Shown here: piece by piece, positions 4,745-55,589 of the stretch
Layout of the letters: every line of letters begins with the position of its first letter
How positions within the stretch are numbered: the first letter of the stretch is position 1
From: an uncultured Ectothiorhodospiraceae bacterium
GTDB taxonomy: Bacteria > Bacteroidota > Ignavibacteria > SZUA-365 > GCA-2699105
NCBI GenBank assembly: GCA_964408855.1
Contig: CAYPBB010000004.1
Location: 51,764-115,763 of the forward strand
Direction of reading: 5' to 3'
DNA length: 64,000 bases
Translations under genes and position numbers: made by a program
The notes under the pieces: model-generated
The model's database searches: none
Seen by the model: only the letters and a program-made list of their open reading frames with translations
Told to the model about the DNA's origin: nothing

Positions 4745-4758
4745 CATCTACCGAATGA

Positions 4759-5124
4759 GTGGATAAGCACGAGAGCTCGATGAATCTTGGATCGATTCCA
4801 TACGAAGAGTTTTTAAGCGAAGTCAAACTTCGCGTTTGTTCGCTTTGCTCCAAAACCGGAGCCGACGGACAATGCACCATTACAGGAACGAAATCCTGTA
4901 CGGTTGAACGTCATCTGCCGAAGATCATCCAGGTTGCGAACATGATCAACAGCAACAACGTCGACGACTACGTGTCTGCGTTCAGGGAACATGTCTGCCG
5001 CGACTGCCGAAAGGATGGGGACACGCACTGCACCGTCAGGGAATCGGATGCATGCGGCCTCGATAAGTACTTCCCGATCGTCGTCGAGGCGATCGAGGCG
5101 GTTCAGCGGCGGTACGCTCGGTAA
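4759..5124 (+). CDS. hypothetical small Cys-rich protein (multiple CxxC pairs, possible metal-binding)
   Basis: 121 aa ORF with CSLC, CRDC and C..C motifs. Tightly spaced after the AKR gene. No recognisable family. Confidence 0.4.
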   Translation: MDKHESSMNLGSIPYEEFLSEVKLRVCSLCSKTGADGQCTITGTKSCTVERHLPKIIQVANMINSNNVDDYVSAFREHVCRDCRKDGDTHCTVRESDACGLDKYFPIVVEAIEAVQRRYAR

Positions 5125-8948: not shown

Positions 8949-10060
8949 GCGAATCAGATGTAGATCTTGTACGCCCGAAGACGGCAACGCTTAGGAACAG
9001 GCTTGAACGCGGATTTCGAATCCGGTTATGGATTGCGGGAATCCTTGCGGTTATTGCGTTGCTGCTGTATGCGGCGAATCAGTTTTATGCCGTCGTCATG
9101 CCCGATCTTTCCGCATTGAGCGAGCGCGAGGATCAGACCGCCCTACAGCGTATCGAAACGGAAGTGGTCGAGGCATTCAGGGGATTCGGGATTAAATCGA
9201 CATGGATCGAAAGGAAGGATTTTTCGCTTCCGGCCTATGGGAAAATCAGGACCGTCTGGAAGGTCTACGCACCGCTGGACGTTCCGCTTGCATCGCTGAA
9301 CCAGGAACTCACGACTATCGCCGCAAAATATAACTCGGTCGCCGGCGCAAGCGAAAATTTGAAAACCGGCGAGGTTACCGTCCATATCAAACATGGTAAC
9401 ATGGTTGTATTCAGCGTGGATCTTATTCCCGATCCATCGAAACGAAGGAATGGAGGGAAGATCGCGATCCTGTTCGATGGTCTGGAAGGAGCCTCGGAAT
9501 CTGAAATCGACAGGCTGGCGCTCTCCACCGAACCTATCGCCTGCGTTTTCGAACCGACGCTGGATGTATATGCCCTGTACAACAAACTGAAAAGCGAAAA
9601 GAAGGAAATGGTGTTCCATTTCCACATCAACCCGGAGAAGAAAACGGAAGGGCGGTTCGAATTCCACGAGGATATGCCGCCCGGCGCAATCAAGCGGCGC
9701 ATCCGGTTCCTGCTCCAGAACTACCCGGATGTCGGCGCATACTACATCACCACCGAGCTGGTGCCAGGCTCGGCGGCAGAGAGTATGGAGGAAGAGCTAC
9801 GCGCACATGGACTTTCCCGCGTGGAGATAGACGACATGGTGTACCTCGACCGGTCGTTAAGCGAAGACCAGCTTTCCGCCCGGATGAACGACCTGGCTGC
9901 GATTTCAGCCAGACGAGGCATGGTTATCGGAGTGGTGCGCCTGGATGACGGTATGGTGGATTTTATATCCGACGAGATGATCAGGCTGAGAAAGAAGGGC
10001 TTCGATTGCTACCGGCTTGGACCGCTTCTTCGCGAAAAGGGCCGGCTTTCGGTGAACTGA
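8945..10060 (+). CDS. hypothetical membrane-anchored protein, possibly YibQ-like divergent polysaccharide deacetylase
   Basis: Start overlaps the previous stop (ATGA). Single N-terminal TM helix (IRLWIAGILAVIALLLYA). KIAILFDGLEGA / HFHINPE segments resemble the divergent polysaccharide deacetylase family, but the assignment is weak. Confidence 0.45.
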   Translation: MSESDVDLVRPKTATLRNRLERGFRIRLWIAGILAVIALLLYAANQFYAVVMPDLSALSEREDQTALQRIETEVVEAFRGFGIKSTWIERKDFSLPAYGKIRTVWKVYAPLDVPLASLNQELTTIAAKYNSVAGASENLKTGEVTVHIKHGNMVVFSVDLIPDPSKRRNGGKIAILFDGLEGASESEIDRLALSTEPIACVFEPTLDVYALYNKLKSEKKEMVFHFHINPEKKTEGRFEFHEDMPPGAIKRRIRFLLQNYPDVGAYYITTELVPGSAAESMEEELRAHGLSRVEIDDMVYLDRSLSEDQLSARMNDLAAISARRGMVIGVVRLDDGMVDFISDEMIRLRKKGFDCYRLGPLLREKGRLSVN

Positions 10061-22259: not shown

Positions 22260-24041
22260 ATGTCTGAAGAACAAACAATTGTTACCGAATCTGCTGTTCT
22301 ATCGGTGCAACCCGGCGCGAACATTGTAGCCAGCGTCGGAAAAGTCGTGCTTGACAGCGACTACAGCAAGGACGATTTCGCCAAATTTAAATCGATGTAC
22401 GAGAACACCCTGACCACCCTTCGTCCTGGGGAAATCATTCAGGGTAAAATCGTCAATATGACCAAAGACTACGTTACGATTGACATCGGCTTGAAATCCG
22501 AAGGTCTCGTTCCGATCGATGAGTTTTCGAACGCGTCGGAACTCGAACGCGGTCAGGTGGTGGAAGTGTATCTCGAACAACTCGAAGACAAAGACGGCAA
22601 TGTGCAGCTTTCCCGTAAGCGCGCCGACTTTGTCCGCATTTGGGAACGCATCCAGGATGCTTACGACAATCTTGAAATTTTACAGGGACGCTGCATCCGC
22701 CGTATCAAGGGCGGTATCGTCGTCGATCTCATGGGCATCGACGCATTCCTTCCGGGTTCGCAGATCGATATCCGCCCGGTGCGCGATTTCGACGCCTACC
22801 TCGGCAAATCCCTCGACGTACGCGTCGTGAAGATCAACCAGCCCGCCGAAAACATTGTCGTCAGCCGTAAGGCGATTATCGAAGAGCAGATTACCGGTCA
22901 GCGCAAAGCGATCCTCGACAGCCTCGAAAAGGGTCAGATCCTCGAAGGTATCGTGAAAGCCATTGCCGACTTCGGCGTGTTCATCGATCTCGGCGGCGTG
23001 GACGGTCTCGTCCATATCACCGACCTCTCGTGGGGCAGAGTGAACCATCCGACCGAAATCGTGAAGCTGGACCAGACGGTGAACGTTGTTGTTCTCGATT
23101 TCGACACCGAAAAGAAACGCATCTCTCTGGGCATGAAGCAGCTTCAGCCGCACCCGTGGGAAAACATCGGCGAGAAATACCCCGTCACCACGAAGGTGCG
23201 CGGAAAGGTTGTTTCGCTTGCCGATTACGGCGCATTCATCGAAATCGAAAAGGGTATCGAAGGCTTGATCCACATTTCCGAAATGAGCTGGACACAGCAC
23301 ATCAAGCATCCGTCGCAGGTCGTTTCCATGGGACAGATGGTGGACGCTGTGATCCTCAATCTCGATGTGGAAGAGAAGAAAATCTCCCTCGGTATGAAAC
23401 AGCTCGAACCCGATCCGTGGGCGAACCTCATCGCGAAATACCCGGTCGATTCGCAGCACAACGGTATCGTGCGCAACCTCACCAACTTCGGCGTGTTCGT
23501 TGAACTCGAACCCGGCGTCGACGGTCTGGTGCATATTTCCGACCTCTCATGGACGAAGAAAATCCGCCACCCGGGAGAAATCGTGAAGAAGGGCGACAAT
23601 ATCGAAGTCGTCATTCTCGGCATCGACCAGGATCAGCGCCGCATTTCGCTCGGTCACAAGCAGGTGCAGGACAATCCGTGGGATGTGTTCGAAACGCAGT
23701 ACGCGGTCGGCATCGAATGCGAAGGCAAGGTAGTCCGCCTGATTGAAAAGGGCGTGATTGTCGAGCTTCCCGCCGGCGTGGACGGTTTTGTTCCGGCATC
23801 GCAGCTTGCCAGCAAGCAGGTGAAGAACATTCCGGAAGCGTTCAAGGAAGGCGACAAGCTGCCGTTGAAGGTGATAGAATTCGACAAGGAGAACAAGAAG
23901 ATTGTTCTTTCGGTCACCGAATACCTCAAGGGTAAGGACGCCGAGACCGTGGATGCATACCATGCAGCGCACGGCCTCGTCAACGCGCCGGACAAGGAAA
24001 CCAACGAAGTTTCCCCCGACGATTTGAACTTCGACCTGTAA
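22260..24041 (+). CDS. rpsA: 30S ribosomal protein S1
   Basis: 593 aa with six S1 domains (repeated G.V....FGAFV.L..G..GL.HIS..SW patterns). Strong RBS AAGGAGA. Confidence 0.9.
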   Translation: MSEEQTIVTESAVLSVQPGANIVASVGKVVLDSDYSKDDFAKFKSMYENTLTTLRPGEIIQGKIVNMTKDYVTIDIGLKSEGLVPIDEFSNASELERGQVVEVYLEQLEDKDGNVQLSRKRADFVRIWERIQDAYDNLEILQGRCIRRIKGGIVVDLMGIDAFLPGSQIDIRPVRDFDAYLGKSLDVRVVKINQPAENIVVSRKAIIEEQITGQRKAILDSLEKGQILEGIVKAIADFGVFIDLGGVDGLVHITDLSWGRVNHPTEIVKLDQTVNVVVLDFDTEKKRISLGMKQLQPHPWENIGEKYPVTTKVRGKVVSLADYGAFIEIEKGIEGLIHISEMSWTQHIKHPSQVVSMGQMVDAVILNLDVEEKKISLGMKQLEPDPWANLIAKYPVDSQHNGIVRNLTNFGVFVELEPGVDGLVHISDLSWTKKIRHPGEIVKKGDNIEVVILGIDQDQRRISLGHKQVQDNPWDVFETQYAVGIECEGKVVRLIEKGVIVELPAGVDGFVPASQLASKQVKNIPEAFKEGDKLPLKVIEFDKENKKIVLSVTEYLKGKDAETVDAYHAAHGLVNAPDKETNEVSPDDLNFDL

Positions 24042-24065: not shown

Positions 24066-24093
24066 GGGCGCAGCATGCTGCGCCCTTTTTTAT
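24066..24093 (+). terminator. rho-independent terminator of rpsA
   Basis: Hairpin GGGCGCAGCA/TGCTGCGCCC followed by TTTTTTATT. Confidence 0.65.
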
Positions 24094-24099
24094 TGTGGG

Positions 24100-24540
24100 C
24101 TGGTAAATGTGTGCAGGCGAAATTCTTCATACCCCTTTGGACAAAGGGGTCGATTGCCGCTCAAAATTCTTGCGGCAATCGGGGGAATGTGTTCTTCGCG
24201 AAAATCCTATATACCACAGGCGCTCGCATTCAATGGTGAATACGCCTACCACGCTTTGTCATCCTGGGCGCGCAGCGCCCGGGATCTCGTAGGATAGCAG
24301 CCTCCAGTTGGGCAAGCAGAAACCTGGTGTTTCCCGTGCATTACCGGCATCGCAATCCCCCCGCCTCGCCGGACTGACAGCCTACATTTCCGCTCCGCCT
24401 TCCCCGCGACGAGCCGACCCCCAAGTCGTCTACGTCCGGCTACTGCCGCGGGGTACTAAGACGTGCCGCGCAGACTCTTACCGTGCCGGACAGCCTTAGA
24501 CGGATAGGACTCAAGCGTGGGGGAAGGAGAGATACTGTTC
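24100..24540. other. GC-rich structured non-coding region (candidate ncRNA or integration-site remnant) preceding the low-GC insert
   Basis: No convincing ORF (only short high-GC ORFs). Multiple local hairpins (CCCCTTTGGACAAAGGGG; GATTGCCGC..GCGGCAATC; CGACG..CGTCG). Segment TCGCAATCCCCCCGCCTCG at 24340-24358 resembles a tRNA/tmRNA T-arm plus acceptor 3' end. Sub-motifs recur at 26.96-27.35 kb. Confidence 0.3.
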
Positions 24541-24890
24541 GGGACACTGGGGCAATGTGCACAGTGCTTGTCTTGTATAGCCCTAAACGATGTTTAGCGG
24601 GTGTCATTTGTTAGGCAGAGTTGCATTTAGTAGAAAAAGTTACGAGATTGAGTGTGGTGTACAAATATTCTTGGCAACGGATATATTGTGGGTGCGTGGC
24701 ATAACTGTTCTCATTAATTTCGAATAGCCAAACCATAGACGATGCCAGCCAAGCAATTGTTTGAGTTAACTTAGCGGACTAAGATAATGAAATCTATTTT
24801 TGTTTATCATAGCCATTGAATAATTGAAAAATGATTTGAGTCGAAGCAAGGTGGTTGAGTAAAAGTTGGAATAGTAATGGAGGCATAAGT

Positions 24891-26798
24891 ATGGCCAATG
24901 ACAATACGCTAATAAGTCTAGCAATGTTGAAGTCCTCAATTGACGCTAAGAAGGATTACCTTGAAAGGCTGCGTCCGTTTATTATGGATGCGCTATTTAA
25001 ACAACGTCCGGAGGTTGTGAGTGATTATATAGTATCTACATATCTAAAGGATATGTATGGACTTGTCATCCCACAGCAAGTAACGCAGATATTATTGCAA
25101 AGAATTGCTAGGGATGGGTGTTTGGTAAGAGAACACGGGGTATACCGTATTGTTAATCTCGATGAATCTGTCCAACTTGATACTGTTAAGGCAACAGAGC
25201 ATATTGGGAATGTTATTAATGGTCTAATCAGGTATTCATCCACCACAGTGTCCCCAATTGAAAGCAAGGATGAAGCGATTAATCAACTTATCGCATTTCT
25301 ATCTGAATTTTCCATTCCGTGTGTAAAGTATTATCTGCGAAATACTGCACTGCCGGATATTGCTAATACCCAAGGATCTGAGAATGTACTGGTAGCAAAT
25401 TATGTAATATATATATCTGAAAATGAACATGAACTGTATTCTAGTTTCCTTGTAATGCTGCAGGGACATATGCTCGCGAACTCACTCGTTTGCCCGTCTT
25501 TATCTGAGGCGCCGAAGTCGTATAAAAACGTAACATTTTTCTTTGATACTCGGCTAATCCTTGCTCTCGCTGGCTTAGATGGAAATATAAAAAAACATGC
25601 AACTTTGTCACTTTGTGAACTGATTCGCAAATTGCATGGTACGATGTCTGTGTTTTCGCATACGATGGAAGAAGTGCAACGTGTAATTACTGTTGCATCA
25701 GATTTTATCGATTCAACGGAGGGTAGGGGGTCTATCGTTCGAGAAGCTAGAATGGCTAAAAGAACGAAATCAGATCTGTTGCTGATTGCAGCGGATCTTG
25801 AGATCGAGTTAGCGAATATTAATATAAAGGTTCAGCCGACGCCGAGGTATCATCGGGAGTATCAAATAGATGAAACAATGTTCGAAAACATACTAACTGA
25901 TGAGATTGACTATTATAATCAAAAGGCGATTGAGTATGACGTCAATACTGTTCGCAGTATTTATGCATTAAGAGAGAGGCTTTCGCCGAATACAATCGAA
26001 CGCTGTCGAGCTGTGGCCGTAACCTCCAACACAGCTTTTGCAAATGCTGCATATCAATATGGACAAAAATATTTAGAGACAAGTTCAGTGTCAAGTGTGA
26101 TTACGGATTTTAGTCTGGCAAATATGGCTTGGTTAAAGACGCCGATGGAATCGCCCCAAATACCACAGAATGAATTAATTGCCTTTGCATATACTGCCCA
26201 TCAGCCAACTAGGAGATTTATCGAGGCATTGGAACGTGAGCTTGATAAATTGGAACATGAGGGACGGATGACCGAGCGTCATCTTCAGTTATTGCGTAGC
26301 AGGACAGAAAGCCCGGAGTTGATGAGATACACTTTAGGTAGAGAGGAGTCCTTAAATTATAAGACCATGACCGAGATAGCTGAAAATATTGAGAAGGAGA
26401 TTAAAGAGGAGGAGAAAAGATTACGCGAGTTACGGGAGAGTGAGCTAAACAAAATAATCGAAGAGAAAAGCCACATTCTCGATATGCTGACAAGTAATCA
26501 AAGGGAGACGTATGATGGGGTGAAAAAAGATGCAGACAAAATATCAAGCAGATATTCACTGATCGCCTCGATTTTTATCGCTATCATATCTCTTGGTGTT
26601 GTATTGTTTGTTACATTCTATCCCAATTATGAATGGTATTTTATGCTTCCAATATGGATAGCATATGTTGTGATAGCATATACACCTATGATAAACGGTG
26701 TAAATATTTGTGTATTACACAAAAAAATTAAAGAATCGATTTATAAACGTTATATAAAGAAAATGGAAAGAAGATTAAGAGTGAAGTTGTTGCCATAA
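24891..26798 (+). CDS. orphan low-GC island protein: large soluble N-terminal domain, coiled-coil segment, C-terminal two-helix membrane anchor (candidate standalone defence/abortive-infection effector)
   Basis: Single long ORF in a roughly 2.3 kb AT-rich insert (about 40% GC against 57% flanks). GGAGG RBS 9 nt before ATG 24891; track start 24855 is in the same frame. Charged coiled-coil (EKEIKEEEKRLRELRESELNKIIEEK) precedes two C-terminal TM helices (YSLIASIFIAIISLGVVLFVTFY; WYFMLPIWIAYVVIAYTPMI). No recognisable catalytic motif. Confidence 0.6.
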   Translation: MANDNTLISLAMLKSSIDAKKDYLERLRPFIMDALFKQRPEVVSDYIVSTYLKDMYGLVIPQQVTQILLQRIARDGCLVREHGVYRIVNLDESVQLDTVKATEHIGNVINGLIRYSSTTVSPIESKDEAINQLIAFLSEFSIPCVKYYLRNTALPDIANTQGSENVLVANYVIYISENEHELYSSFLVMLQGHMLANSLVCPSLSEAPKSYKNVTFFFDTRLILALAGLDGNIKKHATLSLCELIRKLHGTMSVFSHTMEEVQRVITVASDFIDSTEGRGSIVREARMAKRTKSDLLLIAADLEIELANINIKVQPTPRYHREYQIDETMFENILTDEIDYYNQKAIEYDVNTVRSIYALRERLSPNTIERCRAVAVTSNTAFANAAYQYGQKYLETSSVSSVITDFSLANMAWLKTPMESPQIPQNELIAFAYTAHQPTRRFIEALERELDKLEHEGRMTERHLQLLRSRTESPELMRYTLGREESLNYKTMTEIAENIEKEIKEEEKRLRELRESELNKIIEEKSHILDMLTSNQRETYDGVKKDADKISSRYSLIASIFIAIISLGVVLFVTFYPNYEWYFMLPIWIAYVVIAYTPMINGVNICVLHKKIKESIYKRYIKKMERRLRVKLLP

Positions 26799-26829
26799 AG
26801 ATATCAATGGTGATACGAAAATGCGGATG

Positions 26830-27440
26830 CGTCCATAAATCCCTGCATGTATGTCAGTGCGAGACTGAGCATGTTGAATACATTGGCCCCCCCGGTGGTG
26901 CTTTCGTCAGGTCCGAGCATGACGGACTGTACTCAGGACAAAAGGGGGCAGCAATTGCATTGCGAAATCCGCACTGAGTATCGGGGGTTCTGGAAGGCGG
27001 CGCGGTTGACGAATCTGTCTCTGCGAGAACAGGCAGCCTACTATCCCCCCGCTCCGTATTTCTTCGCGCTGCAGCGAAGCCTTGCGCTCAGAAACGGATC
27101 GTGCCCTCCGGCAATGGCCGGATGAAGACACCTTGCTCACTCCTCTCAGTCCGCCTGAGGCGGACTGATCGTCGTGAAAGGGGCATAAAGAGTTTGCGAA
27201 ATCCGCACTGAGAATCGGGGGTTCTGGAAGTCGGAATCGTTTACCCCGTCCCGGTCCGTCCTTGAGAGTCCCTGCGCGTCTAATAGATGGCCCCCCGCCT
27301 CGTCACGGCTTCGCCCTGACGAGTCGACCCCCACGTCGTGGAGGTTTGAAGAAAACACCCAAGCCGTGTGGGTTTGAAGAAAATACCCGCGCCGCGGGGG
27401 TATGAAAACACGCCGCCCAATATCCATGCGGGTGCGGGAG
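26830..27440. repeat. GC-rich repeat cluster on the right flank of the low-GC insert (partial direct repeats of the left-flank motifs)
   Basis: About 39-nt direct repeat GCGAAATCCGCACTGAG(T/A)ATCGGGGGTTCTGGAAG(G/T)CGG at 26961-26999 and 27196-27234. CAGCCTAC(T/A)... GCTCCG at 27033-27055 matches 24376-24398. CCCCCCGCCTCG at 27294-27305 matches 24347-24358. GACGAG(T)CGACCCCCA(C)GTCGT at 27318-27339 matches 24398-24419. Tandem GGTTTGAAGAAAA(C/T)ACCC x2 at 27346-27386. Confidence 0.5.
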
Positions 27441-27581
27441 GCGGGTTGTGGTTTCGTGGGAATTATTCGCTACATTTGTATCGGATCTGTATGCCTGAAG
27501 AAGGCGCAATTGTGCCGGTCAGACTACAGAATCAACGAATCTGACGATTTTACTCACATTTTGACACAGGAGAAGAGTTTC

Positions 27582-28664
27582 ATGGCAACGCGCTCGCATA
27601 ACTTTTTTGCCGGACCGGCAGTGCTTCCGTTATCTGTTGTGGAAGCCGCCCGCGACGCCGCATGGGATTTTGCGGGAATGGGCATGTCGATCATGGAAAT
27701 CAGCCACCGCTCGAAGGAATTCGATAAGGTGATGCTTGAAGCCCAGGAAGACGCTCTCACGATCATGGGGCTTTCGAAGGACGAATATTCGGTTGTGTAC
27801 GTGGGCGGAGGCGCAAGCACCCAGTTCGCGATGGTGCCGATGAACTTCCTCCATACCAAAGCAGATTATGTCAATACCGGCGAGTGGGCAACCAAAGCGA
27901 TCAAAGAGGCGAAACTGTTCGGTACGCCCAATGTCGTTGCCACCTCGGAACCCGATAATTTCAACTATATCCCGAAAGACCTTCCCTGGTCTGCCGATGC
28001 GGACTATGCGCATATCACTACCAACAATACCATCTACGGAACCCGCTGGAACGAAATGCCCAACGTCGGCAATGTACCATTGGTCGCCGATATGTCGTCG
28101 GACATGCTCAGCCGCGAACTGGACTACAGTAAATTCAGCCTGATCTATGCAGGCGCGCAGAAGAACCTGGGACCCGCAGGCGTGGTGCTGGTCGTCATCA
28201 AGAAATCGTGGCTCGAAAAAGCCCGCACCGACATCCCCACCATGCTGAAATACAAAATCCACGTTGATAAGGATTCGATGTACAACACGCCGCCGGTGTT
28301 CCCGGTGTACGTTGTCGGACAGACGCTGAAGTGGATTCTGAAGGAAGGCGGACTCGGCGCTATCGAGGAACGCAACATTCGCAAGGCGAAGCTGATCTAC
28401 GATATGATCGATGCGTATCCCGAGTTCTACAAAGGCGCCGTGAAGGCAAAGGAAGACCGCTCGCTCATGAACATCACCTGGAACCTCCCGACGCCGGAAC
28501 TCGAAGACAAGTTCGTGGCGGAAGCCAAAGCGCAGAAAATGCTGGGGCTCAAAGGACACCGTTCCGTCGGCGGCATCCGCGCCAGCACATACAATGCCTG
28601 CCCGGTGGAATCGGTCGAGCTTCTCGCGAAGTTCATGGAAGAGTTCTACAAAGCGAACAAGTAA
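27582..28664 (+). CDS. serC: phosphoserine aminotransferase
   Basis: Class-V aminotransferase / SerC motifs (FFAGPAVLP, PLV(A)DMSS, QKN). RBS AGGAGAAG before ATG 27582. The ORF-track start 27402 extends into the upstream repeat region and is rejected. Confidence 0.9.
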   Translation: MATRSHNFFAGPAVLPLSVVEAARDAAWDFAGMGMSIMEISHRSKEFDKVMLEAQEDALTIMGLSKDEYSVVYVGGGASTQFAMVPMNFLHTKADYVNTGEWATKAIKEAKLFGTPNVVATSEPDNFNYIPKDLPWSADADYAHITTNNTIYGTRWNEMPNVGNVPLVADMSSDMLSRELDYSKFSLIYAGAQKNLGPAGVVLVVIKKSWLEKARTDIPTMLKYKIHVDKDSMYNTPPVFPVYVVGQTLKWILKEGGLGAIEERNIRKAKLIYDMIDAYPEFYKGAVKAKEDRSLMNITWNLPTPELEDKFVAEAKAQKMLGLKGHRSVGGIRASTYNACPVESVELLAKFMEEFYKANK

Positions 28665-28687
28665 TTTTTGCGACATATACGTCGAAA

Positions 28688-28731
28688 CAGGACGGCCATC
28701 CCTCTCGGATGGCTGTTTTTTATTGTACCGA
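28688..28731 (+). terminator. rho-independent terminator of serC
   Basis: Hairpin ACGGCCATCC-ctctc-GGATGGCTGT followed by TTTTTTATT. Confidence 0.6.
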
Positions 28732-28846
28732 CATTCAGGTATGTCGCGGAGGAGACACATCCGATTTGTTGGCGTGATAATAAAAAGAAGATAGTGTCTA
28801 AAATAGCGTAAAACAGTTTTCTCATCTTATTGCAAGCGGAGGCTTT

Positions 28847-29692
28847 ATGTTATTTCGTTTTCTTCTGTTTCTCGGGGTGATTGTCTTGTTCAACGCCCCT
28901 ACATCCTTTGGTCAGATTCTCTATACCGATATCGTGCCCGATACGGTACTCTGTACGCCGCCGGGACCGGGCGGTCACACCAATTATTATATCGATATGA
29001 ACCATGACGGTATTTTCGATTTTCAGATGACCCATTTTTACGCCAAGGTTGACTGGGTATCGGCGGAAGCGTACAGTTATAGCGACGGTATTCACGCAAA
29101 TTACCCGTGTAAAATTCTGACCAATGTATACAACCACGGGATGGCTTTCAGCGTCGGCGACACAATCGGTCCGAATACGCAGGGCACGTGGTATAACGGT
29201 CTGGAGTTCGGCGGAATGACATCGGTGTATCTCAGCAATTATAATGAAACGTATTACCCCTGGCACGATGCCGCGGATAAATACCTTGCGGTGACGATGG
29301 AGGATGCGCAGCACACCTATTATGGATGGGTCTGCATGGACGTGGGACCAAACTCGGCATGGCTGAAAGTGAAGGCGTTTGCGATGAATTTCGCGCCGGA
29401 TTCATATATCACAGCCGGGCAATGGACGACGACGGGTATCGACATGGCCGCCGCTGTTGCCGGGAGTATCTCGGTATATCAGGCTCCGGGTTTTATCATG
29501 GTCAGAATGGATGATACGCCTGGCCAGGAACAAACAATTGCCGTTTATTCTGTTCTGGGAGAGCGCGTTGCATCGGTAACGCAGACAGGCGCGGTGACTG
29601 CTATCCCATCGCGCGGCCTGCCGAAAGGCATGTATCTGGTGACTGCAACCACGGGCGAAACAATACGTTACGGGAAGGTGTTATTACGGTAA
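28847..29692 (+). CDS. hypothetical secreted protein with T9SS C-terminal sorting domain
   Basis: Signal peptide MLFRFLLFLGVIVLFNAPTSFGQ. C-terminal IAVYSVLGERV...GMYLVTATTGETIRYGKVLLR fits the T9SS CTD pattern. RBS GGAGG. Confidence 0.6.
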   Translation: MLFRFLLFLGVIVLFNAPTSFGQILYTDIVPDTVLCTPPGPGGHTNYYIDMNHDGIFDFQMTHFYAKVDWVSAEAYSYSDGIHANYPCKILTNVYNHGMAFSVGDTIGPNTQGTWYNGLEFGGMTSVYLSNYNETYYPWHDAADKYLAVTMEDAQHTYYGWVCMDVGPNSAWLKVKAFAMNFAPDSYITAGQWTTTGIDMAAAVAGSISVYQAPGFIMVRMDDTPGQEQTIAVYSVLGERVASVTQTGAVTAIPSRGLPKGMYLVTATTGETIRYGKVLLR

Positions 29693-29885
29693 GGAAGGTG
29701 TAAGCAATAAATACGCACGCAATGTTGAACCGCTGGCACAGTTGCTCATTGCGTGCATACTAATCAGAATTATATGCGTCTTTAATGCGTTTGGGTCCCC
29801 CGGAAAATGGGATTTAACAACCGGTTAATACGTAATACGAAAAATGGGAATGTCATCAATCTGATATATTGACACCGCAGGTAAT

Positions 29886-29915
29886 CGGGAGGTTACACTT
29901 CCCGTTTCTTTTTTA
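29886..29915 (+). terminator. putative terminator after T9SS-cargo gene
   Basis: Hairpin CGGGAGgttacaCTTCCCG followed by TTTCTTTTTT. Confidence 0.4.
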
Positions 29916-30051
29916 ATCGAAAGCCAGAGTAGTCTCGATAGGGTGCATGAGGTGTCTTGGTTTTCGAATGCAGAATCGTGTCCGGCTGTTTCTATCAGAC
30001 TACTGCGTACAGTTTATCGCCAAAAATCCGTATCTTTCTTGTCCGAATTGA

Positions 30052-36799: not shown

Positions 36800-36846
36800 A
36801 ATCGACGGAGCGGCAACTCTCGTACCCCGTCCGCTTACGGCAACGC

Positions 36847-36893
36847 ATCGCAACCCTGCGCAAGTTCAGGCGGGGTTGCGATGTTCTTGTTTC
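36847..36893 (+). terminator. putative terminator after porin gene
   Basis: Hairpin ATCGCAACCC-(15 nt loop)-GGGGTTGCGAT followed by a T-rich run. Confidence 0.45.
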
Positions 36894-36915
36894 GGGGCTC
36901 GCGAACGATACACGA

Positions 36916-37227
36916 TCAACGAGTATCGCCGGAATCCCATCCGTAGACATAAAGGTCTACAACACCCTTGTCGTTGAACCGTATGCCCTCCGCTTCGAGC
37001 AACATCCGTTGCGTTGCGTCGCCGGTTCCCTTGTTTCGCATACTGATGCGTCCCTTGCTGTTGATAACCCGGTGCCAGGGTATTGGGGCGCTTACCGGAA
37101 GCGCCGAAAGCGCGTATCCCGCCTGCCGAGCGGTGCACCCGGCGAGCGCCGCCACGGTTCCGTACGTAGCGACTTTCCCTTCGGGGATCTGTTCGACAAT
37201 TACATAGATATCGTCATAGGAGAACAT
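36916..37227 (-). CDS. alkyltransferase-like protein (ATL; MGMT DNA-binding domain with active-site Cys replaced by Trp)
   Basis: 103 aa. Helix-turn-helix of the O6-alkylguanine transferase fold. PWHRV in place of the catalytic PCHRV, the hallmark of ATL proteins (Atl1 / YbaZ-type). Confidence 0.7.
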   Translation of the reverse strand: MFSYDDIYVIVEQIPEGKVATYGTVAALAGCTARQAGYALSALPVSAPIPWHRVINSKGRISMRNKGTGDATQRMLLEAEGIRFNDKGVVDLYVYGWDSGDTR

Positions 37228-40704: not shown

Positions 40705-42129
40705 CTATTTTGTCGAGAAATTCCTGCCGAGTATGTAGTCCGCCGCCGCATGCCCGCTTCTGACCGCTCCTTCGAGCGTCGCGGGGAGCGACGTACCGGT
40801 CCAGTCGCCTGCAATCGCGATTGCGCCATTCGCTATTGCGCCATTCGCGATTGCGCCATTCGCTATTGCGCCATTCGCTATTGCGCCATTCGCTATTGCG
40901 CCATTCGCTATTGCGCCATTCGCGATGGGGAACCGGGAGCGTACAGCATTGAGCCCCGGCGCGGGGATGAAGGTCGCAAACCGCTCGCGGACCGTTTTCA
41001 TGCGATAGAGTTCGCCCTGAGCGAGTGAAGGATATGCAGCATACAATTCCCGTGCAATCGTTCGTTCAAGTTCTTCGATCGGCTGATTGCTGACGGAGTC
41101 CGCCGCGGATATCACGCCGCTGTAGCGCCACCCTCCGTCCGCTGCCGAGCCTTTTGAGAACAGCCATTGGAGAGAGGTACCGAGGAATGCCGTCATTAGT
41201 TCATTTGTGAATTGCCGCTTCGACCATATATGCACCGAAGCGATTTCAGAAGGTACAAAAACGCCCGGAGGCGGAACCGGTATCGCCGCTTCGGGCGACG
41301 CAGCGGCAAGACGTTCATGCTGACGGTGCGATAATGCCAGTACAATAGCGGAGATGCTGTATGCATCCTTGTTCGTATTGATAGTGAAGCCGCTGCCGGC
41401 AGGAATGATCGATTCCACCATGGTATGGATCTGTATGCTGCCGCCGTTGCGAAGGATAGAGGAAAGCGCATCGTCGACATACAGCGCGCTCAAATCGGTA
41501 GACGGGAGAAGAAATGTCGATGCTGCTTTGCCGCCCAGAAACGCTTCCCTCAATACGGTCGCAAAAAGCATTGCGGAGGCATCGCGCGGGCGGGCGTTCA
41601 TCGTCGCGAGGACGATCGGTTCCCATAGCCGGGCGAGGGCGGCGGGTCCCTGACGCAGATGCGTCAACCACTCAAGCACGGAGCGAGTGTCCAGCGCCTG
41701 GAGCCTTTTACGCGAGAGCATCGCCGCGGCGCGGACGACATTCAGGAGCGCGAGCCGCTCGGCGAACGATAACATGTCGAATCCAAGAAATGCCGACAAT
41801 GCATCGAGAGGCCACGGGAGCCGCTTTGCTACAAGCGTCGCTCTATCCCCGTTGGCTGAGATAAACGGTACGCGGAGATTTCGGATAGGTACAAGTTTCG
41901 TATCGGCGCCGATGGTGCGGAGAAACGCGAGCATCTCCGTATAGCATCCCATCATGATATGCTGACCATTGTCGAGACGTTCGCCCGATATGCTGTCGGT
42001 GAAAGCGAACGCCCTTCCTCCGCAATGGGATTTTGCTTCGAACAGCGTAACGCGTATACCGCGCGAAGCCAGCCGGACCGCGGCTGCCAGCCCGGAAATC
42101 CCTCCCCCGATAACGGCGCAACCGGTCAT
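40705..42129 (-). CDS. hpnE: squalene-associated FAD-dependent desaturase (HpnE-like amine-oxidase family), with in-frame (ANGAI)x7 insertion
   Basis: N-terminal dinucleotide fold (AVIGGGISGLAAAVRLA). C-terminal GDWT...EGAVRSG FAD-binding motif. Position after the hpnC and hpnD homologues. Start overlaps the hpnD stop by 4 nt. Confidence 0.7.
   Translation of the reverse strand: MTGCAVIGGGISGLAAAVRLASRGIRVTLFEAKSHCGGRAFAFTDSISGERLDNGQHIMMGCYTEMLAFLRTIGADTKLVPIRNLRVPFISANGDRATLVAKRLPWPLDALSAFLGFDMLSFAERLALLNVVRAAAMLSRKRLQALDTRSVLEWLTHLRQGPAALARLWEPIVLATMNARPRDASAMLFATVLREAFLGGKAASTFLLPSTDLSALYVDDALSSILRNGGSIQIHTMVESIIPAGSGFTINTNKDAYSISAIVLALSHRQHERLAAASPEAAIPVPPPGVFVPSEIASVHIWSKRQFTNELMTAFLGTSLQWLFSKGSAADGGWRYSGVISAADSVSNQPIEELERTIARELYAAYPSLAQGELYRMKTVRERFATFIPAPGLNAVRSRFPIANGAIANGAIANGAIANGAIANGAIANGAIANGAIAIAGDWTGTSLPATLEGAVRSGHAAADYILGRNFSTK
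40811..40924. repeat. 15-bp perfect/near-perfect tandem repeat (ATTGCGCCATTCGCK) x7.6 inside hpnE coding sequence
   Basis: Seven full units at 40820-40924 plus a partial unit at 40811-40819. Differs only at the last unit base (T/G). Encodes ANGAI pentapeptide repeats on the minus strand. Confidence 0.9.
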
Positions 42130-46752: not shown

Positions 46753-48774
46753 TTACTTCGTCAGCACCATCTTCTTGGTCGCGCGGTAGTTGCCTGCTTC
46801 GATGCGGTAGAAGTACACGCCCGAAGGTGCAACATGCGTATCAGTGTTGGTGGTTCCGTTCCAGGCGACGCGGTATGTGCCGGCCTGGTAGAATCCGTCG
46901 ACAAGAACGTTCACGCGTTTACCGTTTGCGTCGTACACGGCGAGCTTCACGTTCGCTCCTTTCGGGACGGAGAACATGATTTCGGTGCTCGGGTTGAACG
47001 GATTCGGGAAGTTCTGTGCGAGGTTGTAGTTGTTCGGAACCGCGCCGCCGACAGGTTCAACGTTCACTTTCTTCATCTCGTCGATGGAGGCCTTCAATAA
47101 TGCTTCCGCATATTTGAAGTTGTGGACGCCGAAGCTGTTGTCGTTGTTCACAAAGTAGTAATTCCAATGAACGTCGATTTCAAGCTGCGTCTTCAGCGCA
47201 GTATCGGACGGGAATCGCGGTCTGCCGTCCGGACGGAGCTTCAGATAGCCCTTCAACTCGTCGAGAAGCGCCTTGATTTCGGTCTGCGTTTCTTCCATTT
47301 CCGTCAGCGTGACGCCGCTCGTGTGGCAGGTCTTGCAACCGGTGTTGTTCAGGACATCGTCGGTAGCATCGTTCGGAGTGTCGTTGTCATAGAGAACACG
47401 GAAGGTGTGACCGCCGAGTTTATTGTTATACTGCGCATCCTCTGGTTCCGCCATGTGGCATTCGGCGCATGCGTCGGCAATGTTGGTGTGAACCGAATTC
47501 GGGTAGCTGTAACCCGGGAATTCGCGACCGCCTTCGCCCTTCAGCATCGGTCCCTGGTGCGAAGCGTGGAGACCGCTCTGACCGGAAGGACGGATACTGT
47601 GGCAATCGGCGCACAACTGGTTTTTGGCTTTCCGCAACTGCGACGGATTTGCGTTGCTGTGCGGATCGTGGCAGGTGACGCAACCGACGTAGGCGGGATC
47701 CTTGTACGGCGCATTCGAGAAGGAAGTTTCCGGCGGATTGGCGCTCTTGACGAACACATCGAGATAGCCTGCGGATGTATGGCAGCGGGCGCAATCGCTG
47801 TTCACGTTGGTCTTGCTGCCGCGGTTCATGTATTCCGGAAGCTCTGGACCTTCATCCATCGAGTGGCTGTGCGCGGAGTTCTCGTATTCCAGAAGCGTAC
47901 GGTGGTAGGGCGGCGCATCGTGGCACTGCTTGCACGTCTCGCTCGATGCGGAAGAATAAATCTTGTTGTCGCCGGTCGGGCCGCCGTGGGCGCTGCCGGG
48001 GCCATGACACGATTCGCATTGAATGCCTGCGCGGTGCGCGAGCATAGGCGCGACGAGCTTTAACGAATCCCAGTTGCCGGCTTTCAATTCGGTTGGGAAC
48101 GTCCAACTGCTCGATTTTGCTAGATGAAGGAATCCATCGCCTTCCGCAGCCGGATTCGTGGAACCAGTGGTGTGGCAACCGAGGCAGTTTGAATTGAAAT
48201 GCCCGCCGACTTCATCAAGCCGGCGTTCCAATGCCGTTGCGTGCGCCGTCTGGTTCCATGTAGTTGCTACGGCGCTGTGGCACATAGCGCACTGCGGATA
48301 CGTCGCCGCGCCGCCGAGCATGGTGCCGACGCCGACATACTTGGCGACGTTGATCGCAAGCGTGTCCGTTCCGCCGTTCCCTTTGTTGTCCGTAGCGGTA
48401 AGCTGGATTTTATACGTTCCTTCCATGTCTGGAATGAAGAACGCGCGTTGCTGATCGATCATCGTGAACGCCGCGGTCGATCCTGCAGGCGCAGAGATGA
48501 ATGTGAATGTCGATGATGCCCAGGCTGTTGCGTCGCCGTTTGTAGCGTCGCGGGAGAATTTCCCGAAGACGCCCAAATAGACTTTTCCGCCTTTGGCGCA
48601 ATTCGGTAGACCGCTGAACGGCACATCGTACGCATCCGCAGGATCCGCAGCGACGAGGTTCGGCGATACGCCAAACGTACGGGCTTTCACAACAGCCGGG
48701 GTTAGCTGAGCATGGAGCGGCAGTGCGAAGCTCACCAGCACGGCTGCTACCAGAAATAGATGCAATGCCCTCAT
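46753..48774 (-). CDS. extracellular nonaheme c-type cytochrome with T9SS C-terminal sorting domain
   Basis: Signal peptide MRALHLFLVAAVLVSFALPLHAQ. Nine CxxCH motifs (CAMCH, CLGCH, CESCH, CKQCH, CARCH, CVTCH, CADCH, CAECH, CKTCH). C-terminal roughly 90 aa fits the T9SS CTD pattern (NFPNPFNPSTEI...VYDANGKRV...SGVYFYRIEAGNYRATKKMVLTK). Confidence 0.75.
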   Translation of the reverse strand: MRALHLFLVAAVLVSFALPLHAQLTPAVVKARTFGVSPNLVAADPADAYDVPFSGLPNCAKGGKVYLGVFGKFSRDATNGDATAWASSTFTFISAPAGSTAAFTMIDQQRAFFIPDMEGTYKIQLTATDNKGNGGTDTLAINVAKYVGVGTMLGGAATYPQCAMCHSAVATTWNQTAHATALERRLDEVGGHFNSNCLGCHTTGSTNPAAEGDGFLHLAKSSSWTFPTELKAGNWDSLKLVAPMLAHRAGIQCESCHGPGSAHGGPTGDNKIYSSASSETCKQCHDAPPYHRTLLEYENSAHSHSMDEGPELPEYMNRGSKTNVNSDCARCHTSAGYLDVFVKSANPPETSFSNAPYKDPAYVGCVTCHDPHSNANPSQLRKAKNQLCADCHSIRPSGQSGLHASHQGPMLKGEGGREFPGYSYPNSVHTNIADACAECHMAEPEDAQYNNKLGGHTFRVLYDNDTPNDATDDVLNNTGCKTCHTSGVTLTEMEETQTEIKALLDELKGYLKLRPDGRPRFPSDTALKTQLEIDVHWNYYFVNNDNSFGVHNFKYAEALLKASIDEMKKVNVEPVGGAVPNNYNLAQNFPNPFNPSTEIMFSVPKGANVKLAVYDANGKRVNVLVDGFYQAGTYRVAWNGTTNTDTHVAPSGVYFYRIEAGNYRATKKMVLTK

Positions 48775-49190
48775 TTAACCTCCGATACAATGATTTGATG
48801 GGACAAATAGAAGAACCTGTCTTCTTTTATTAAGACATGGATTTCCGAATGCAATAACGAACTGCAATACTGCAACTGCTAACTGCGCAATCCTAGAAAA
48901 ACGGCTGAAACTTTGCGTTGTGACAGTGAAATATACACAAGCCATTCTCCATTTTCCAGTAGAGCGCATCAAGAGCAATGAATAAATCATTGAACGGCAA
49001 GCCAACCCAAGCTTTTTTGTGGGAAAGAACAAGGATGAGGTGCTTGACATTTACAGTCGCTTTCGTCTTAGTGTGTAAATATTCTACATCAATATACGAA
49101 CAACGTCGTGTAACTGTCAATGAATTCTACACTTATTTCTGAAAAAAAGATGCTTTTGTATTCAGTCCGACGTGTCCCCTTTAAAACGGC

Positions 49191-49217
49191 AAAAGTGACG
49201 CAAATTGCGCCACTTTT
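49191..49217. terminator. putative bidirectional terminator hairpin downstream of the multiheme lipoprotein gene
   Basis: AAAAGTGACGCA-aat-TGCGCCACTTTT palindrome (one mismatch) flanked by an A-run and a T-run. Confidence 0.4.
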
Positions 49218-49241
49218 GATCCGATTTGTCTTTTGTTTCTG

Positions 49242-52479: not shown

Positions 52480-52544
52480 ATGTTCGTCCTTTAGTTCTGT
52501 TGACCAGAATGAGAGTTGTTAATTGCTTGAATTTGGATAACTGC

Positions 52545-52586
52545 GGGGTAAAAACAAAACAGGCGGACCCGCATGGGATCCGCCTG
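52545..52586 (-). terminator. putative terminator/attenuator downstream of tetraheme cytochrome gene
   Basis: Hairpin CAGGCGGA(CC)...(GGGA)TCCGCCTG with a U-run on the minus transcript (plus GGGGTAAAAACAAAAC). Confidence 0.4.
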
Positions 52587-52599
52587 CGGTCTAGATTGA

Positions 52600-53160: not shown

Positions 53161-53267
53161 TTTCTCCTCGATTCATTGGTGAATGGATTATTGATTTGTG
53201 TATGTATTGCAAAAAGCAGTTGCATGGGTTCGGTATCTGGAGTCCTATGTCCTCTACTTCTATGTAT

Positions 53268-55538: not shown

Positions 55539-55589
55539 AAGTGCGTCACCAGTATGTTATAAGATCAGTGCATTCATTGATGGAATCGG

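What the first reader, a model, noticed from the sequence alone, without database searches (positions are those of the whole stretch)
26830..27440. Cluster of direct repeats and tandem modules upstream of serC that partially duplicate the left-flank motifs
Within 600 nt there is a roughly 39-nt direct repeat (26961-26999 and 27196-27234, 2 mismatches). A second motif CAGCCTAC(T/A).. GCTCCG is shared with 24376-24398. A 7-bp perfect hairpin CTCGTCA..TGACGAG sits inside the att-like motif at 27300-27325. A tandem GGTTTGAAGAAAA(C/T)ACCC x2 is at 27346-27386. The density of repeated GC-rich modules on both sides of the insert suggests reiterated attachment-site fragments, possibly from serial integration and excision events, or a multi-copy small structured RNA family. 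Either would be worth characterising.
Basis: seen in the sequence. Interest (0 to 1): 0.55.

Follow-up and report, generated by a model that had tools for sequence, protein, structure and literature searches.

The report
Lineage-specific mosaic of palindromic intergenic repeats
The repeats are real and are copies of small hairpin-forming modules that related uncultured bacteria also carry between unrelated genes, so this is a REP/BIME-like repeat cluster beside an acquired gene, not a set of phage attachment sites.

Summary
All four observations are confirmed, and none of the motifs occurs elsewhere in the 64-kb window.

The region is 1.1 kb of unusually GC-rich non-coding DNA. It lies on both sides of an AT-rich, horizontally acquired 635-aa gene. 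That gene sits in a 5.9-kb block inserted between rpsA and a miaB-like gene, as shown by comparison with the closest relative.

The "att-like" hairpin is one copy of module H2: a C-run, a 10-11 bp stem, a 10-11 nt loop, the return stem, an A, then a C-run. The 28-nt tandem is three copies of module H1: an ACCC..GGGT hairpin plus WTGAAGA. The window holds three H2 and four H1 copies, all in this locus and in both orientations.

H2 also occurs at unrelated intergenic sites in two related genomes. Some stems there differ but the geometry is kept. There were 4 strict hits against 0.17 expected, with some compensatory changes.

No integrase, transposase, RAYT, tRNA or Rfam family is present.

Best reading: a lineage-specific mosaic of extragenic palindromes, like BIME or NIME elements. 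Function is inferred only: 3'-end stem-loops and recombination-prone DNA. The attachment-site reading is not supported. Genome-wide copy number could not be tested.

The parts
24066..24095 (+). Canonical intrinsic terminator of rpsA. It marks the left edge of the lineage-specific block.
   Evidence: GGGCGCAGCATGCTGCGCCC followed by TTTTTTATTG. Similarity to relative L029 stops at the rpsA stop codon.
24120..24200 (+). Composite A. It consists of an H1 hairpin (24131-24150, with its tail 24124-24130) followed by an H2 hairpin (stems 24151-24160 / 24172-24181, 11-nt loop) and a G-run. The C-rich version lies on the minus strand.
   Evidence: Covariance model R1, built without this copy, finds 24139-24192(-) at 28.9 bits, E=1e-5. 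The H1+tail pattern matches at 24124-24150(-). The plus-strand fold gives z=-5.1, 0/200 shuffles, MFE frequency 0.39.
24351..24470 (+). Left copy of the H2 module. Its loop is disrupted by a ~25-nt insert carrying CAGCCTAC..GCTCCG (24378-24397). A degenerate H1-like unit follows (24445-24470).
   Evidence: The covariance models score it 21.5 bits, E=0.001 (R1) and 39.7 bits (R2, which was trained on it). It is 82% identical to 27306-27339.
24891..26798 (+). AT-rich (38% GC) 635-aa gene of a widespread uncharacterised family. It is the likely acquired cargo between the repeat clusters.
   Evidence: Composition is. There is no Pfam hit. Homologues are 40-49% identical and occur in many phyla. 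One lies between hsdS and hsdR and another next to an NTase/HEPN pair. The AF2 model has only domain-level matches, to a wHTH and a PIN protein, and none to a recombinase.
26942..27000 (+). Copy 1 of the 59-nt direct repeat ('e').
   Evidence: There is no excess folding (z=+0.1 and +0.5).
27029..27080 (+). Degenerate middle module. It contains CAGCCTAC..CCCCCCGCTCCG (27034-27056) and the hairpin CTTCGC..GCGAAG (27062-27079).
   Evidence: Its similarity to the other copies is weak.
27103..27168 (+). Two further small hairpins. One is CCGGCAATGGCCGG plus ATGAAGA (27108-27128). The other is a perfect 10-bp hairpin TCAGTCCGCC/GGCGGACTGA (27146-27168).
   Evidence: Sequence; inverted repeat I2; fold. 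A GTCCGC..GCGGAC hairpin also sits inside the H1 of relative L003.
27177..27234 (+). Copy 2 of the 59-nt direct repeat ('e').
27285..27338 (+). It runs C-run 27291-27296, stem 27296-27305, loop 27306-27316, stem 27317-27326, then ACCCCC.
   Evidence: Strict hairpin scan; covariance model; fold.
27327..27410 (+). 28-nt tandem array made of three H1+tail units (ACCC..GGGT hairpin plus WTGAAGA). On the minus strand, two of the units read as hairpin plus U-tract.
   Evidence: The minus-strand terminator-like sites are at 27398-27386 and 27373-27357.
27466..27482 (+). Conserved serC promoter-like box ATTCGCTACATTTGTA. It forms the right boundary of the repeat cluster.
   Evidence: It is conserved in the window, L002 and L003, and partly in L004. 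Nothing upstream of it is conserved.

Best explanation
The finding is the right-hand half of a cluster of lineage-specific extragenic palindromic modules. It is a mosaic repeat of the BIME/NIME/BOX kind.

Two modules account for most of it:
- H2 is a C-run, a 10-11 bp stem, a 10-11 nt loop, the return stem, an A, then a C-run. The outer CG..CG pairs are conserved.
- H1+tail is an ACCC..GGGT hairpin followed by WTGAAGA.

On top of these there is a recent local duplication of a 59-nt segment.

The cluster fills about 1.1 kb of GC-rich non-coding DNA on both sides of an acquired AT-rich gene. That gene lies inside a 5.9-kb block inserted between rpsA and a miaB-like gene.

Shown: the modules, their copy structure and orientations; that they are non-coding; that they occur in related genomes at other loci with conserved geometry; and that the block is an insertion.

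Inferred: the modules act as stem-loops at the ends of transcription units, terminator-like or stabiliser-like on the G-rich strand. As repeated DNA they also promote local duplication and recombination. This would explain why diverged direct copies flank inserted accessory genes.
For: Family membership:
- A strict scan (C-run, stem of at least 8 bp with at most 1 mismatch, loop 6-16 nt, C-run) gave 4 hits in 140 kb of the window plus relatives. Shuffles gave 0.17. About 190 kb of unrelated loci gave none.
- The hits are window 27291-27332(+), window 24145-24185(-), L002 2571-2613(-) and L003 9458-9501(-).
- All four have stems of 10-11 bp and loops of 10-11 nt. The stems of the 24145 and L002 copies are unrelated in sequence to the others.
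- Model R1 was built from 27285-27338 plus the two L003 copies. It finds 24139-24192(-) at E=1e-5 and 24358-24428(+) at E=0.001, and nothing else in the window.

Structure:
- 4 of 11 stem pairs change on both sides and 88.7% of cells are paired. Only 5 of 500 shuffles reach this.
- The H1-H2 composites fold far better than shuffles: z=-5.1 for window 24120-24200, z=-5.2 for L003 and z=-3.2 for L002.
- H1+tail has 4 copies against 0 expected, all in this locus.

Context:
- The region is non-coding, with no codon periodicity and only junk ORFs.
- It is the most GC-rich long spacer in the window.
- Closest relative L029 has rpsA-128 nt-miaB and the same genes on both sides.
- Three relatives (L002-L004) have serA divergent from serC, and the same adjacency shows in L033-L036. 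No serA remnant is present here.
- In L002 a toxin-antitoxin pair is flanked by ~100-nt direct repeats at 88% identity that include H1.
- Published REP/BIME descriptions match in three respects: extragenic palindromes, clusters and alternating orientation (PMC2817692).
Against: - Only about 7 H2 copies are known, from three genomes. The three copies in the window all lie in one locus. The 60 kb around it has none.
- More distant relatives have none in about 108 kb.
- Genome-wide dispersal, the hallmark of REP-type families, is therefore untested. Scans of public genome and metagenome collections found no further copies.
- The stems are not uniform as in classical REPs, and there is no GTAG head.
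- The covariation count rests on 5 sequences aligned to the model.
- The 59-nt repeat shows no excess structure and no relative, so it may be mere duplication.
- Orientation is not uniform. The G-rich strand matches the upstream gene for 5 elements but not for the two plus-strand copies here.
- The minus-strand terminator-like units have no minus-strand gene within 13 kb to terminate.
Confidence: 0.55

Rival explanations
1. The left and right module copies (24357-24470 and 27291-27425) are attL/attR remnants. On this view a small integrative element carrying the 635-aa gene was integrated by a recombinase acting in trans or since lost. The other fragments come from earlier integration events.
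For: - Diverged direct repeats bracket the AT-rich gene.
- The closest relative lacks the whole block.
- In L002 an accessory toxin-antitoxin pair is bracketed by ~100-nt direct repeats. These include a gene's 3' end and H1, a classic att-like pattern.
Against: - There is no integrase or transposase in the islet or the window.
- There is no tRNA or tmRNA.
- The repeats are 82% identical with at most 12 identical bases in a row, and they contain indels.
- The repeats lie 110 and 490 nt from the edges of the AT-rich DNA.
- The same module also occurs in inverted orientation at 24139-24192.
- It also occurs as tandem copies with no cargo in L003.
- The borders of the 5.9-kb insertion do not coincide with the repeats.
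Confidence: 0.15
2. The modules are non-autonomous mobile elements of the REPIN or MITE type. They would be actively copied by a transposase encoded elsewhere in the genome, for example a RAYT or IS200-like enzyme. This cluster would then be a landing hotspot.
For: - The family has conserved flanks and conserved hairpin geometry.
- The same stem class (CGNCTCG..CGAGTCG plus ACCCC) is present at non-orthologous loci in two genomes that share 78% serC identity.
- Copies occur in inverted pairs and in tandems.
- REPINs are pairs of inverted REPs mobilised by RAYTs (PMC3337134, PMC3116915).
Against: - No RAYT or other transposase is in the window.
- Copy number appears low.
- No target-site duplications were recognised.
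- The scan of viral contigs was negative.
Confidence: 0.15
3. The region encodes one or more functional structured RNAs. These could be an sRNA or a cis-regulatory 3'-UTR element, tied to the 635-aa gene or to neighbouring operons.
For: - The composites have very low folding z-scores on the G-rich strand.
- Two C.A mismatches in the L003 copy at 9327-9382 become G.U pairs on that strand.
- That strand is the sense strand of the upstream gene for five elements.
- There are compensatory changes in the H2 stem.
Against: - There is no Rfam match, even at E<=10.
- Within 26830-27440 itself the z-scores are weak: -1.9 on the plus strand and -3.1 on the minus strand for the whole region, and about 0 for the 59-nt repeat units.
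- Homologues of the 635-aa gene elsewhere have no such flanks.
- Both orientations occur here.
- No promoter was identified for the minus strand.
Confidence: 0.1
4. The repeats are neutral local duplications in junk DNA left by a rearrangement, with no family and no function.
For: - The 59-nt repeat and the 28-nt tandem are purely local.
- The locus is a rearrangement junction.
Against: - H2 recurs in two other genomes at other loci. Some of those stems differ but the geometry is the same.
- A covariance model built from other copies recovers 24139-24192.
Confidence: 0.05

Closest known systems
REP sequences and BIMEs of Enterobacteria and Pseudomonas (including REPINs)
   Same: They are extragenic, GC-rich imperfect palindromes that often lie just downstream of genes. 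They cluster with other short motifs and occur in alternating orientation. They are lineage-specific and are linked to 3'-end effects and to insertion or rearrangement hotspots (PMC2817692, PMC3116915; the hotspot role is from my own knowledge).
   Different: The stems here vary between copies while the flanking C/G-runs and the stem and loop lengths are conserved. There is no GTAG head. No RAYT was found. Only a handful of copies are known, against more than 100 per genome for REPs.
Neisserial intergenic mosaic elements (NIMEs, dRS3 repeats) and Correia elements (from my own knowledge)
   Same: They are mosaics of short inverted-repeat modules in long intergenic regions. They are associated with insertion of foreign genes and with rearrangements.
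   Different: The sequences and the phylum are unrelated. dRS3 is a 20-bp repeat used as a phage integration site. No comparable integration has been shown here.
BOX elements of Streptococcus pneumoniae (from my own knowledge)
   Same: They are modular (boxA-boxB(n)-boxC), with a variable number of tandem copies of the middle module. This parallels H2 followed by one to three H1 units.
   Different: The sequences are unrelated. BOX elements are dispersed in more than 100 copies.
Intrinsic (Rho-independent) terminators
   Same: Two H1 units on the minus strand are a GC-rich hairpin plus a U-tract. Composite A follows the rpsA terminator on the sense strand.
   Different: H2 is followed by a G-run, not a U-tract. 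The minus-strand units have no gene to terminate. Canonical terminators are present separately for rpsA and serC.
attL/attR of integrative islands, and integron attC sites
   Same: Direct repeats containing a hairpin bracket an integrase-less accessory gene. As in attC sites, the structure is conserved and the stems are variable.
   Different: There is no recombinase and no exact core. I did not see RYYYAAC/GTTRRRY boxes on reading the sequence. Copies also occur inverted and without cargo.

Membership tests
REP / BIME / REPIN | Extragenic location | tested here: met
   All copies lie between genes. The flanks show no codon periodicity and carry only junk ORFs. The relatives' copies lie between called genes.
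REP / BIME / REPIN | Imperfect GC-rich palindrome forming a stem-loop | tested here: met
   Stems are 10-11 bp with at most 1 mismatch.
REP / BIME / REPIN | Many dispersed copies per genome (typically >100) | tested here: inconclusive
   Copies occur in one locus of the 64-kb window only. They occur at three other loci in two relatives.
REP / BIME / REPIN | Clusters with copies in alternating orientation plus linker motifs | tested here: met
   24139-24192 is on the minus strand, while 24351-24428 and 27285-27338 are on the plus strand. H1 units lie at 24124-24150(-) and 27327-27410(+).
REP / BIME / REPIN | Near-identical sequence among copies, with a conserved GTAG/CTAC head | tested here: not met
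   Stems differ between copies. There is no conserved GTAG adjacent to the stems.
REP / BIME / REPIN | Associated RAYT (Y1 transposase) gene in the genome | tested here: inconclusive
   None of the 47 window genes is one. The rest of the genome cannot be searched.
att sites of an integrative element | Recombinase gene in or next to the element | tested here: not met
   The only ORF is the 635-aa protein. It has no Pfam, PADLOC, PHROG or PDB recombinase match. There is none in the window.
att sites of an integrative element | Exact core repeat at both borders of the inserted DNA | tested here: not met
   The repeats are 82% identical over 34 nt and the longest exact block is 12 nt. They lie 110 and 490 nt from the AT-rich borders.
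att sites of an integrative element | Target is a tRNA or tmRNA gene, or a gene's 3' end | tested here: not met
   No tRNA or tmRNA is in the window. No duplicated gene end is present here, unlike in L002.
att sites of an integrative element | Empty site in relatives that matches the repeat | tested here: inconclusive
   Relative L029 lacks the whole 5.9 kb, but its spacer cannot be aligned and contains no module.
Intrinsic terminator | GC-rich hairpin immediately followed by a U-tract | tested here: met
   This is met for 27398-27386 and 27373-27357 on the minus strand. It is not met for H2.
Intrinsic terminator | Lies at the 3' end of a transcription unit on the same strand | tested here: not met
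   The next minus-strand gene to the right starts at 40705-42129.
Any described RNA family (Rfam 15) | Match to a covariance model at the gathering score | tested here: not met
   There are no hits at gathering score. At E<=10 there are only chance-level hits. The same holds for L002 and L003.
CRISPR array | Repeats separated by unique spacers, with cas genes nearby | tested here: not met
   The 28-nt units abut with no spacer. No cas domains are found.
Integron attC / gene cassette | R''/R' boxes (RYYYAAC..GTTRRRY) bounding the hairpin, and an integron integrase | tested here: not met
   On reading the sequence, no paired boxes bound the hairpins or lie at the ORF borders. No integrase is present. 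No attC model was available to run.

The most novel reading that the evidence does not exclude
The H1-H2 composites may be the recombination sites of an integrase-less cassette system in this Ignavibacteria-like lineage. On this reading, small defence or toxin-antitoxin cargos are captured next to a composite by a recombinase acting in trans. The two examples would be the 635-aa PIN-like gene here and the Fic pair in L002. The site would be duplicated at each capture. Recognition would be by structure, with conserved flanks and variable stems, as with attC sites.
Probability: 0.08. Interest if true: 0.75.

Novelty: new member of a known kind. Interest (0 to 1): 0.35.

Why it matters
If confirmed genome-wide, this would be the first described palindromic mosaic repeat family in this poorly sampled Ignavibacteria/Bacteroidota-related lineage.

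It has an unusual signature. The C/G-run flanks and the stem and loop lengths are conserved while the stems vary. That points to recognition by shape rather than by sequence.

It also marks places where accessory defence-type genes and a relocated serC block have been inserted. The family could therefore serve as a marker of recombination hotspots in these genomes.

In itself it is an ordinary kind of feature, and no function has been demonstrated.

Tried and rejected
Known elements, none found:
- tRNA or tmRNA as an integration target.
- Rfam families at gathering score and at E<=10; only chance-level hits.

Coding and pseudogene readings, rejected:
- Coding potential of the flanks: junk ORFs and no periodicity.
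- A decayed serA or other neighbour gene in the flanks: tblastn found nothing.

Searches for further copies:
- In the window by pattern, BLAST, nhmmer and covariance model: none.
- Genome-collection scan with the core of the left/right module: 12 single chance hits in unrelated high-GC genomes. The source genome is not in the collection.
- Two metagenome scans: 0 hits.
- Three viral scans: 0 hits, 6 single matches taken as chance (about 7 expected by my rough estimate), and 0 hits.
- These exact-pattern scans were designed before the conserved core was understood, so they were poorly targeted.

Other tests:
- Shared repeats at the borders of the 5.9-kb insertion (24.1 kb against 29.7-30.05 kb): none.
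- Flanks of homologues of the 635-aa gene: no similar sequences.
- A whole-unit MAFFT alignment of three putative tandem units was too noisy to use.
- The 59-nt repeat as a degenerate H1-H2 composite: the flanks resemble one, but there is no excess folding, so the idea was left open.
- Sigma-54 promoter, integron attC boxes and a target-site duplication at the AT-rich borders were checked by reading the sequence and not found.
- The source organism's name could not be recovered.

Full report
**Observation**

The region was read directly.
- The direct repeat is 41 nt with 2 mismatches, at 26960-27000 and 27194-27234. It extends to 59 nt at 85% identity.
- CAGCCTAC..GCTCCG occurs at 24378-24397 and 27034-27056 and nowhere else.
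- The CTCGTCA/TGACGAG hairpin lies at 27299-27323.
- Its surroundings are shared with 24357-24429. The gapped local score was 44, against 24 +/- 3 in shuffles.
- The GGTTTGAAGAAAA tandem is part of a 28-nt x 3 array at 27327-27410.
- None of these motifs has another copy in the remaining 60 kb of the window.

**Setting**

The gene order is cmk, ispH, rpsA (22260-24041, with its terminator at 24066-24095), then a GC-rich spacer (24100-24560). An AT-rich 635-aa ORF follows (24891-26798), then a second GC-rich spacer (26800-27460), then serC (27582-28664). After serC come a 281-aa T9SS-tail protein and a miaB-like gene at 30052.

The two spacers are non-coding. Their ORFs translate to junk and they show no codon periodicity. 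At 57-64% GC they are the most GC-rich long spacers in a 52% GC window. Other spacers are mostly 37-52%.

There is no tRNA and no Rfam family.

The source is an uncultured member of the Ignavibacteria/Bacteroidota group, judged from the names of its nearest homologues. The nearest serC is only 81% identical and the nearest rpsA 86%.

**The locus is a lineage-specific insertion and rearrangement**

The closest relative is JGI sample 3300083231 (locus L029). It has the same genes on both sides: a heparinase-like gene, cmk, ispH and rpsA on one side, and miaB-like, histidine kinase, response regulator, Amt, BBP2 and LysR on the other. In L029 rpsA and miaB are 128 nt apart. About 5.9 kb (24100-30050) is therefore extra in the window.

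In three relatives (L002, L003, L004) serC lies divergent from serA. The same adjacency shows in the gene tables of L033-L036. The window contains no serA and no remnant of one.

The serC promoter-like box ATTCGCTACATTTGTA (27466-27482) is conserved in L002 and L003, but nothing upstream of it is. The repeats therefore do not belong to serC's conserved regulatory region.

**The 635-aa gene**

The gene belongs to a widespread family of ~638-aa proteins with no Pfam domain.
- One homologue sits between hsdS and hsdR of a type I restriction-modification operon. Another sits beside an NTase/HEPN pair.
- An AlphaFold model (pLDDT 73.6) gave only domain-level matches, to a winged-helix protein and a PIN-domain protein. 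None was to a recombinase.
- From the translation, by eye, the C-terminus looks like a coiled coil followed by two hydrophobic helices.

I read it as an acquired defence-type gene, not a mobility gene. No integrase, transposase, RAYT or cas domain occurs among the 47 genes of the window.

**What the repeats are**

The turning point was a weak nhmmer hit in relative L003. L003 has two 125-nt tandem units, 94% identical, in the spacer downstream of an adh_short gene. Each unit contains CCCCCCG-ACTCGTTGC-(11 nt)-GCAACGAGT-CGACCCC.

This matches the architecture of the window's 'att-like' motif, CCCCCCG-CCTCGTCA-(11 nt)-TGACGAG-TCGACCCCC. The inner stem pairs differ in a compensatory way.

A strict structural scan looked for a C-run, a stem of at least 8 bp with at most 1 mismatch, a loop of 6-16 nt, and a second C-run.
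- It found four elements in 140 kb of the window plus relatives, against 0.17 in shuffles. It found none in about 190 kb of unrelated loci.
- The four are window 27291-27332(+), window 24145-24185(-), L002 2571-2613(-) and L003 9458-9501(-).
- All have 10-11 bp stems, 10-11 nt loops, and the flanks CCCC-C..G-ACCCC. The stems of the 24145 and L002 copies are unrelated in sequence to the others.

A covariance model was built from 27285-27338 and the two L003 copies. It recovered 24139-24192(-) at E=1e-5 and the disrupted left copy 24358-24428(+) at E=0.001. It found nothing else in the window.

On the five-sequence model alignment, 4 of 11 pairs change on both sides and 88.7% of cells pair. Only 5 of 500 shuffles reach this. 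That is modest support, because the sequences are few and the alignment was fitted to the model.

I call this module H2.

The 28-nt tandem is three copies of a second module, H1+tail: an ACCC..GGGT hairpin followed by WTGAAGA. A fourth copy lies at 24124-24150(-), directly beside the H2 at 24139-24192(-). That makes 4 matches against 0 expected, all in this locus.

H2-H1 composites therefore sit in inverted orientation near the two ends of the spacer. Composite A lies at 24120-24200, and the other at 27285-27410 with H1 triplicated. A third, disrupted H2 lies at 24351-24428.

**Folding**

On the G-rich strand the composites fold much better than shuffles:
- z=-5.1 for window 24120-24200, with MFE frequency 0.39;
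- z=-5.2 for L003 9288-9382;
- z=-3.2 for L002 2520-2618;
- z=-2.5 for window 27285-27415 on the minus strand.

The G-rich strand is the sense strand of the upstream gene for five elements: after rpsA here, after adh_short in L002, after adh_short in L003 (two copies), and after serC in L003. In the L003 copy at 9327-9382, two C.A mismatches become G.U pairs on that strand. The two plus-strand copies in the window do not follow this rule.

The 59-nt repeat has no excess structure (z about 0) and no copy anywhere else. Each copy is followed 45-57 nt later by CCCCCCGCYYCG. I read it as a recent local duplication of a ~235-nt unit of the cluster.

More distant relatives (L004, L030, L031, L033-L037; about 108 kb) have no H2.

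**Interpretation**

These properties match the known kind of mosaic extragenic palindromic repeats: BIMEs made of REPs, and by analogy NIMEs and BOX elements (PMC2817692, PMC3116915).
- The modules are extragenic palindromes specific to a lineage.
- They cluster with other short motifs, occur in both orientations, and vary in tandem copy number.
- They often lie just downstream of genes.
- They sit where foreign genes and rearrangements have landed.

The parallel in L002 is notable. There a toxin-antitoxin pair (75 aa plus Fic) is bracketed by ~100-nt direct repeats at 88% identity. Those repeats comprise the 3' end of adh_short plus H1.

Membership in the REP/RAYT family proper is not established:
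- copy number is unknown;
- stems are not uniform;
- there is no GTAG head;
- no RAYT was seen.

The function I commit to is inferred, not shown. The modules would act as stem-loops at the ends of transcription units. Two minus-strand H1 units are formally hairpin plus U-tract. They would also be recombination-prone repeated DNA, which would explain diverged direct copies on both sides of inserted genes.

**Attachment-site reading**

This reading fails on four counts:
- there is no recombinase;
- there is no tRNA;
- the repeats are 82% identical with no exact core longer than 12 nt, and they lie 110-490 nt from the AT-rich borders;
- the same module occurs inverted at 24139-24192 and as cargo-free tandems in L003.

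It is not excluded that a recombinase acting in trans uses these hairpins. I rate that low.

**Limits**

- The source genome beyond the window could not be searched.
They found nothing useful.
- Only about seven H2 copies from three genomes support the family.

Noticed in passing
window 24100-30050: Relative to the closest relative (L029: rpsA-128 nt-miaB-like), about 5.9 kb is inserted here. The extra DNA comprises the repeat-flanked 635-aa gene, serC with its own promoter, and a 281-aa T9SS-tail protein. In relatives serC is divergent from serA, and a 28%-identical homologue of the 281-aa gene lies 2 kb downstream of serC in L002. A serC block has therefore been relocated.
   Followed up: yes
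window 24165-24171 and 27114-27129: Short-read contigs from three different runs end at the same two places. L032 ends at 24171, L017 spans 24165-27129, and L001 starts at 27114. Both points lie inside small hairpins containing CGGCAAT (24151-24181 and 27108-27121). This may reflect population heterogeneity of the 2.95-kb segment, or coverage dips at hairpins.
   Followed up: partly
window 24891-26798: The 635-aa ORF belongs to a large uncharacterised family of ~638-aa proteins found in many phyla, with no Pfam domain. One member lies between hsdS and hsdR and another next to an NTase/HEPN pair. The model shows a winged-helix domain, a PIN-like domain, a long coiled coil, and (by eye from the translation) two C-terminal hydrophobic helices. 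It is a candidate defence gene.
   Followed up: partly
L002 2470-2569 and 3333-3432: In the closest relative, a 75-aa/Fic toxin-antitoxin pair is bracketed by ~100-nt direct repeats at 88% identity. The repeats consist of the last ~45 nt of adh_short plus the H1 hairpin. This is an att-like duplication with no recombinase on the 4.5-kb contig.
   Followed up: partly
L003 4565-5415 and 9265-9884: The relative L003 has two long GC-rich spacers (851 and 620 nt, 57-59% GC) full of repeated hairpin modules. One is a nested H2 variant at 4636-4712. There are also ~49-nt repeats at 4733-4781 and 4964-5010, and several 9-bp-stem hairpins with 11-nt loops (4847-4875, 9782-9810).
   Followed up: partly
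window 24185-24196 and L003 9438-9449: The 12-mer GAATGTGTTCTT occurs once in the window, directly after the G-run of composite A. Its only other occurrence among all fetched loci is 11 nt upstream of an H2 in L003.
   Followed up: no
window 40815-40923: There is a 15-nt tandem repeat, TCGCTATTGCGCCAT x 7.3 at 96% identity. It lies inside the 3' part of the minus-strand amine-oxidase-like gene (40705-42129), which implies a 5-residue repeat near that protein's C-terminus.
   Followed up: no
window 57132-57183: There is a 15-nt tandem repeat, CAGGTGCATTCTTCG x 3.5. It lies just upstream of the start of the multihaem cytochrome gene 55590-57080 (minus strand), within a cluster of multihaem cytochrome genes (46753-57080).
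   Followed up: no
L004 4231-4410: An octamer-type tandem array (CGGAGACA/CGGAGACG and variants) lies upstream of serC in a more distant Ignavibacteria relative.
   Followed up: no
window 36800-37008: This is a second unusually GC-rich spacer (57% GC, 209 nt), between the BBP2 porin gene and the LysR gene. It has no similarity to the modules studied here.
   Followed up: no
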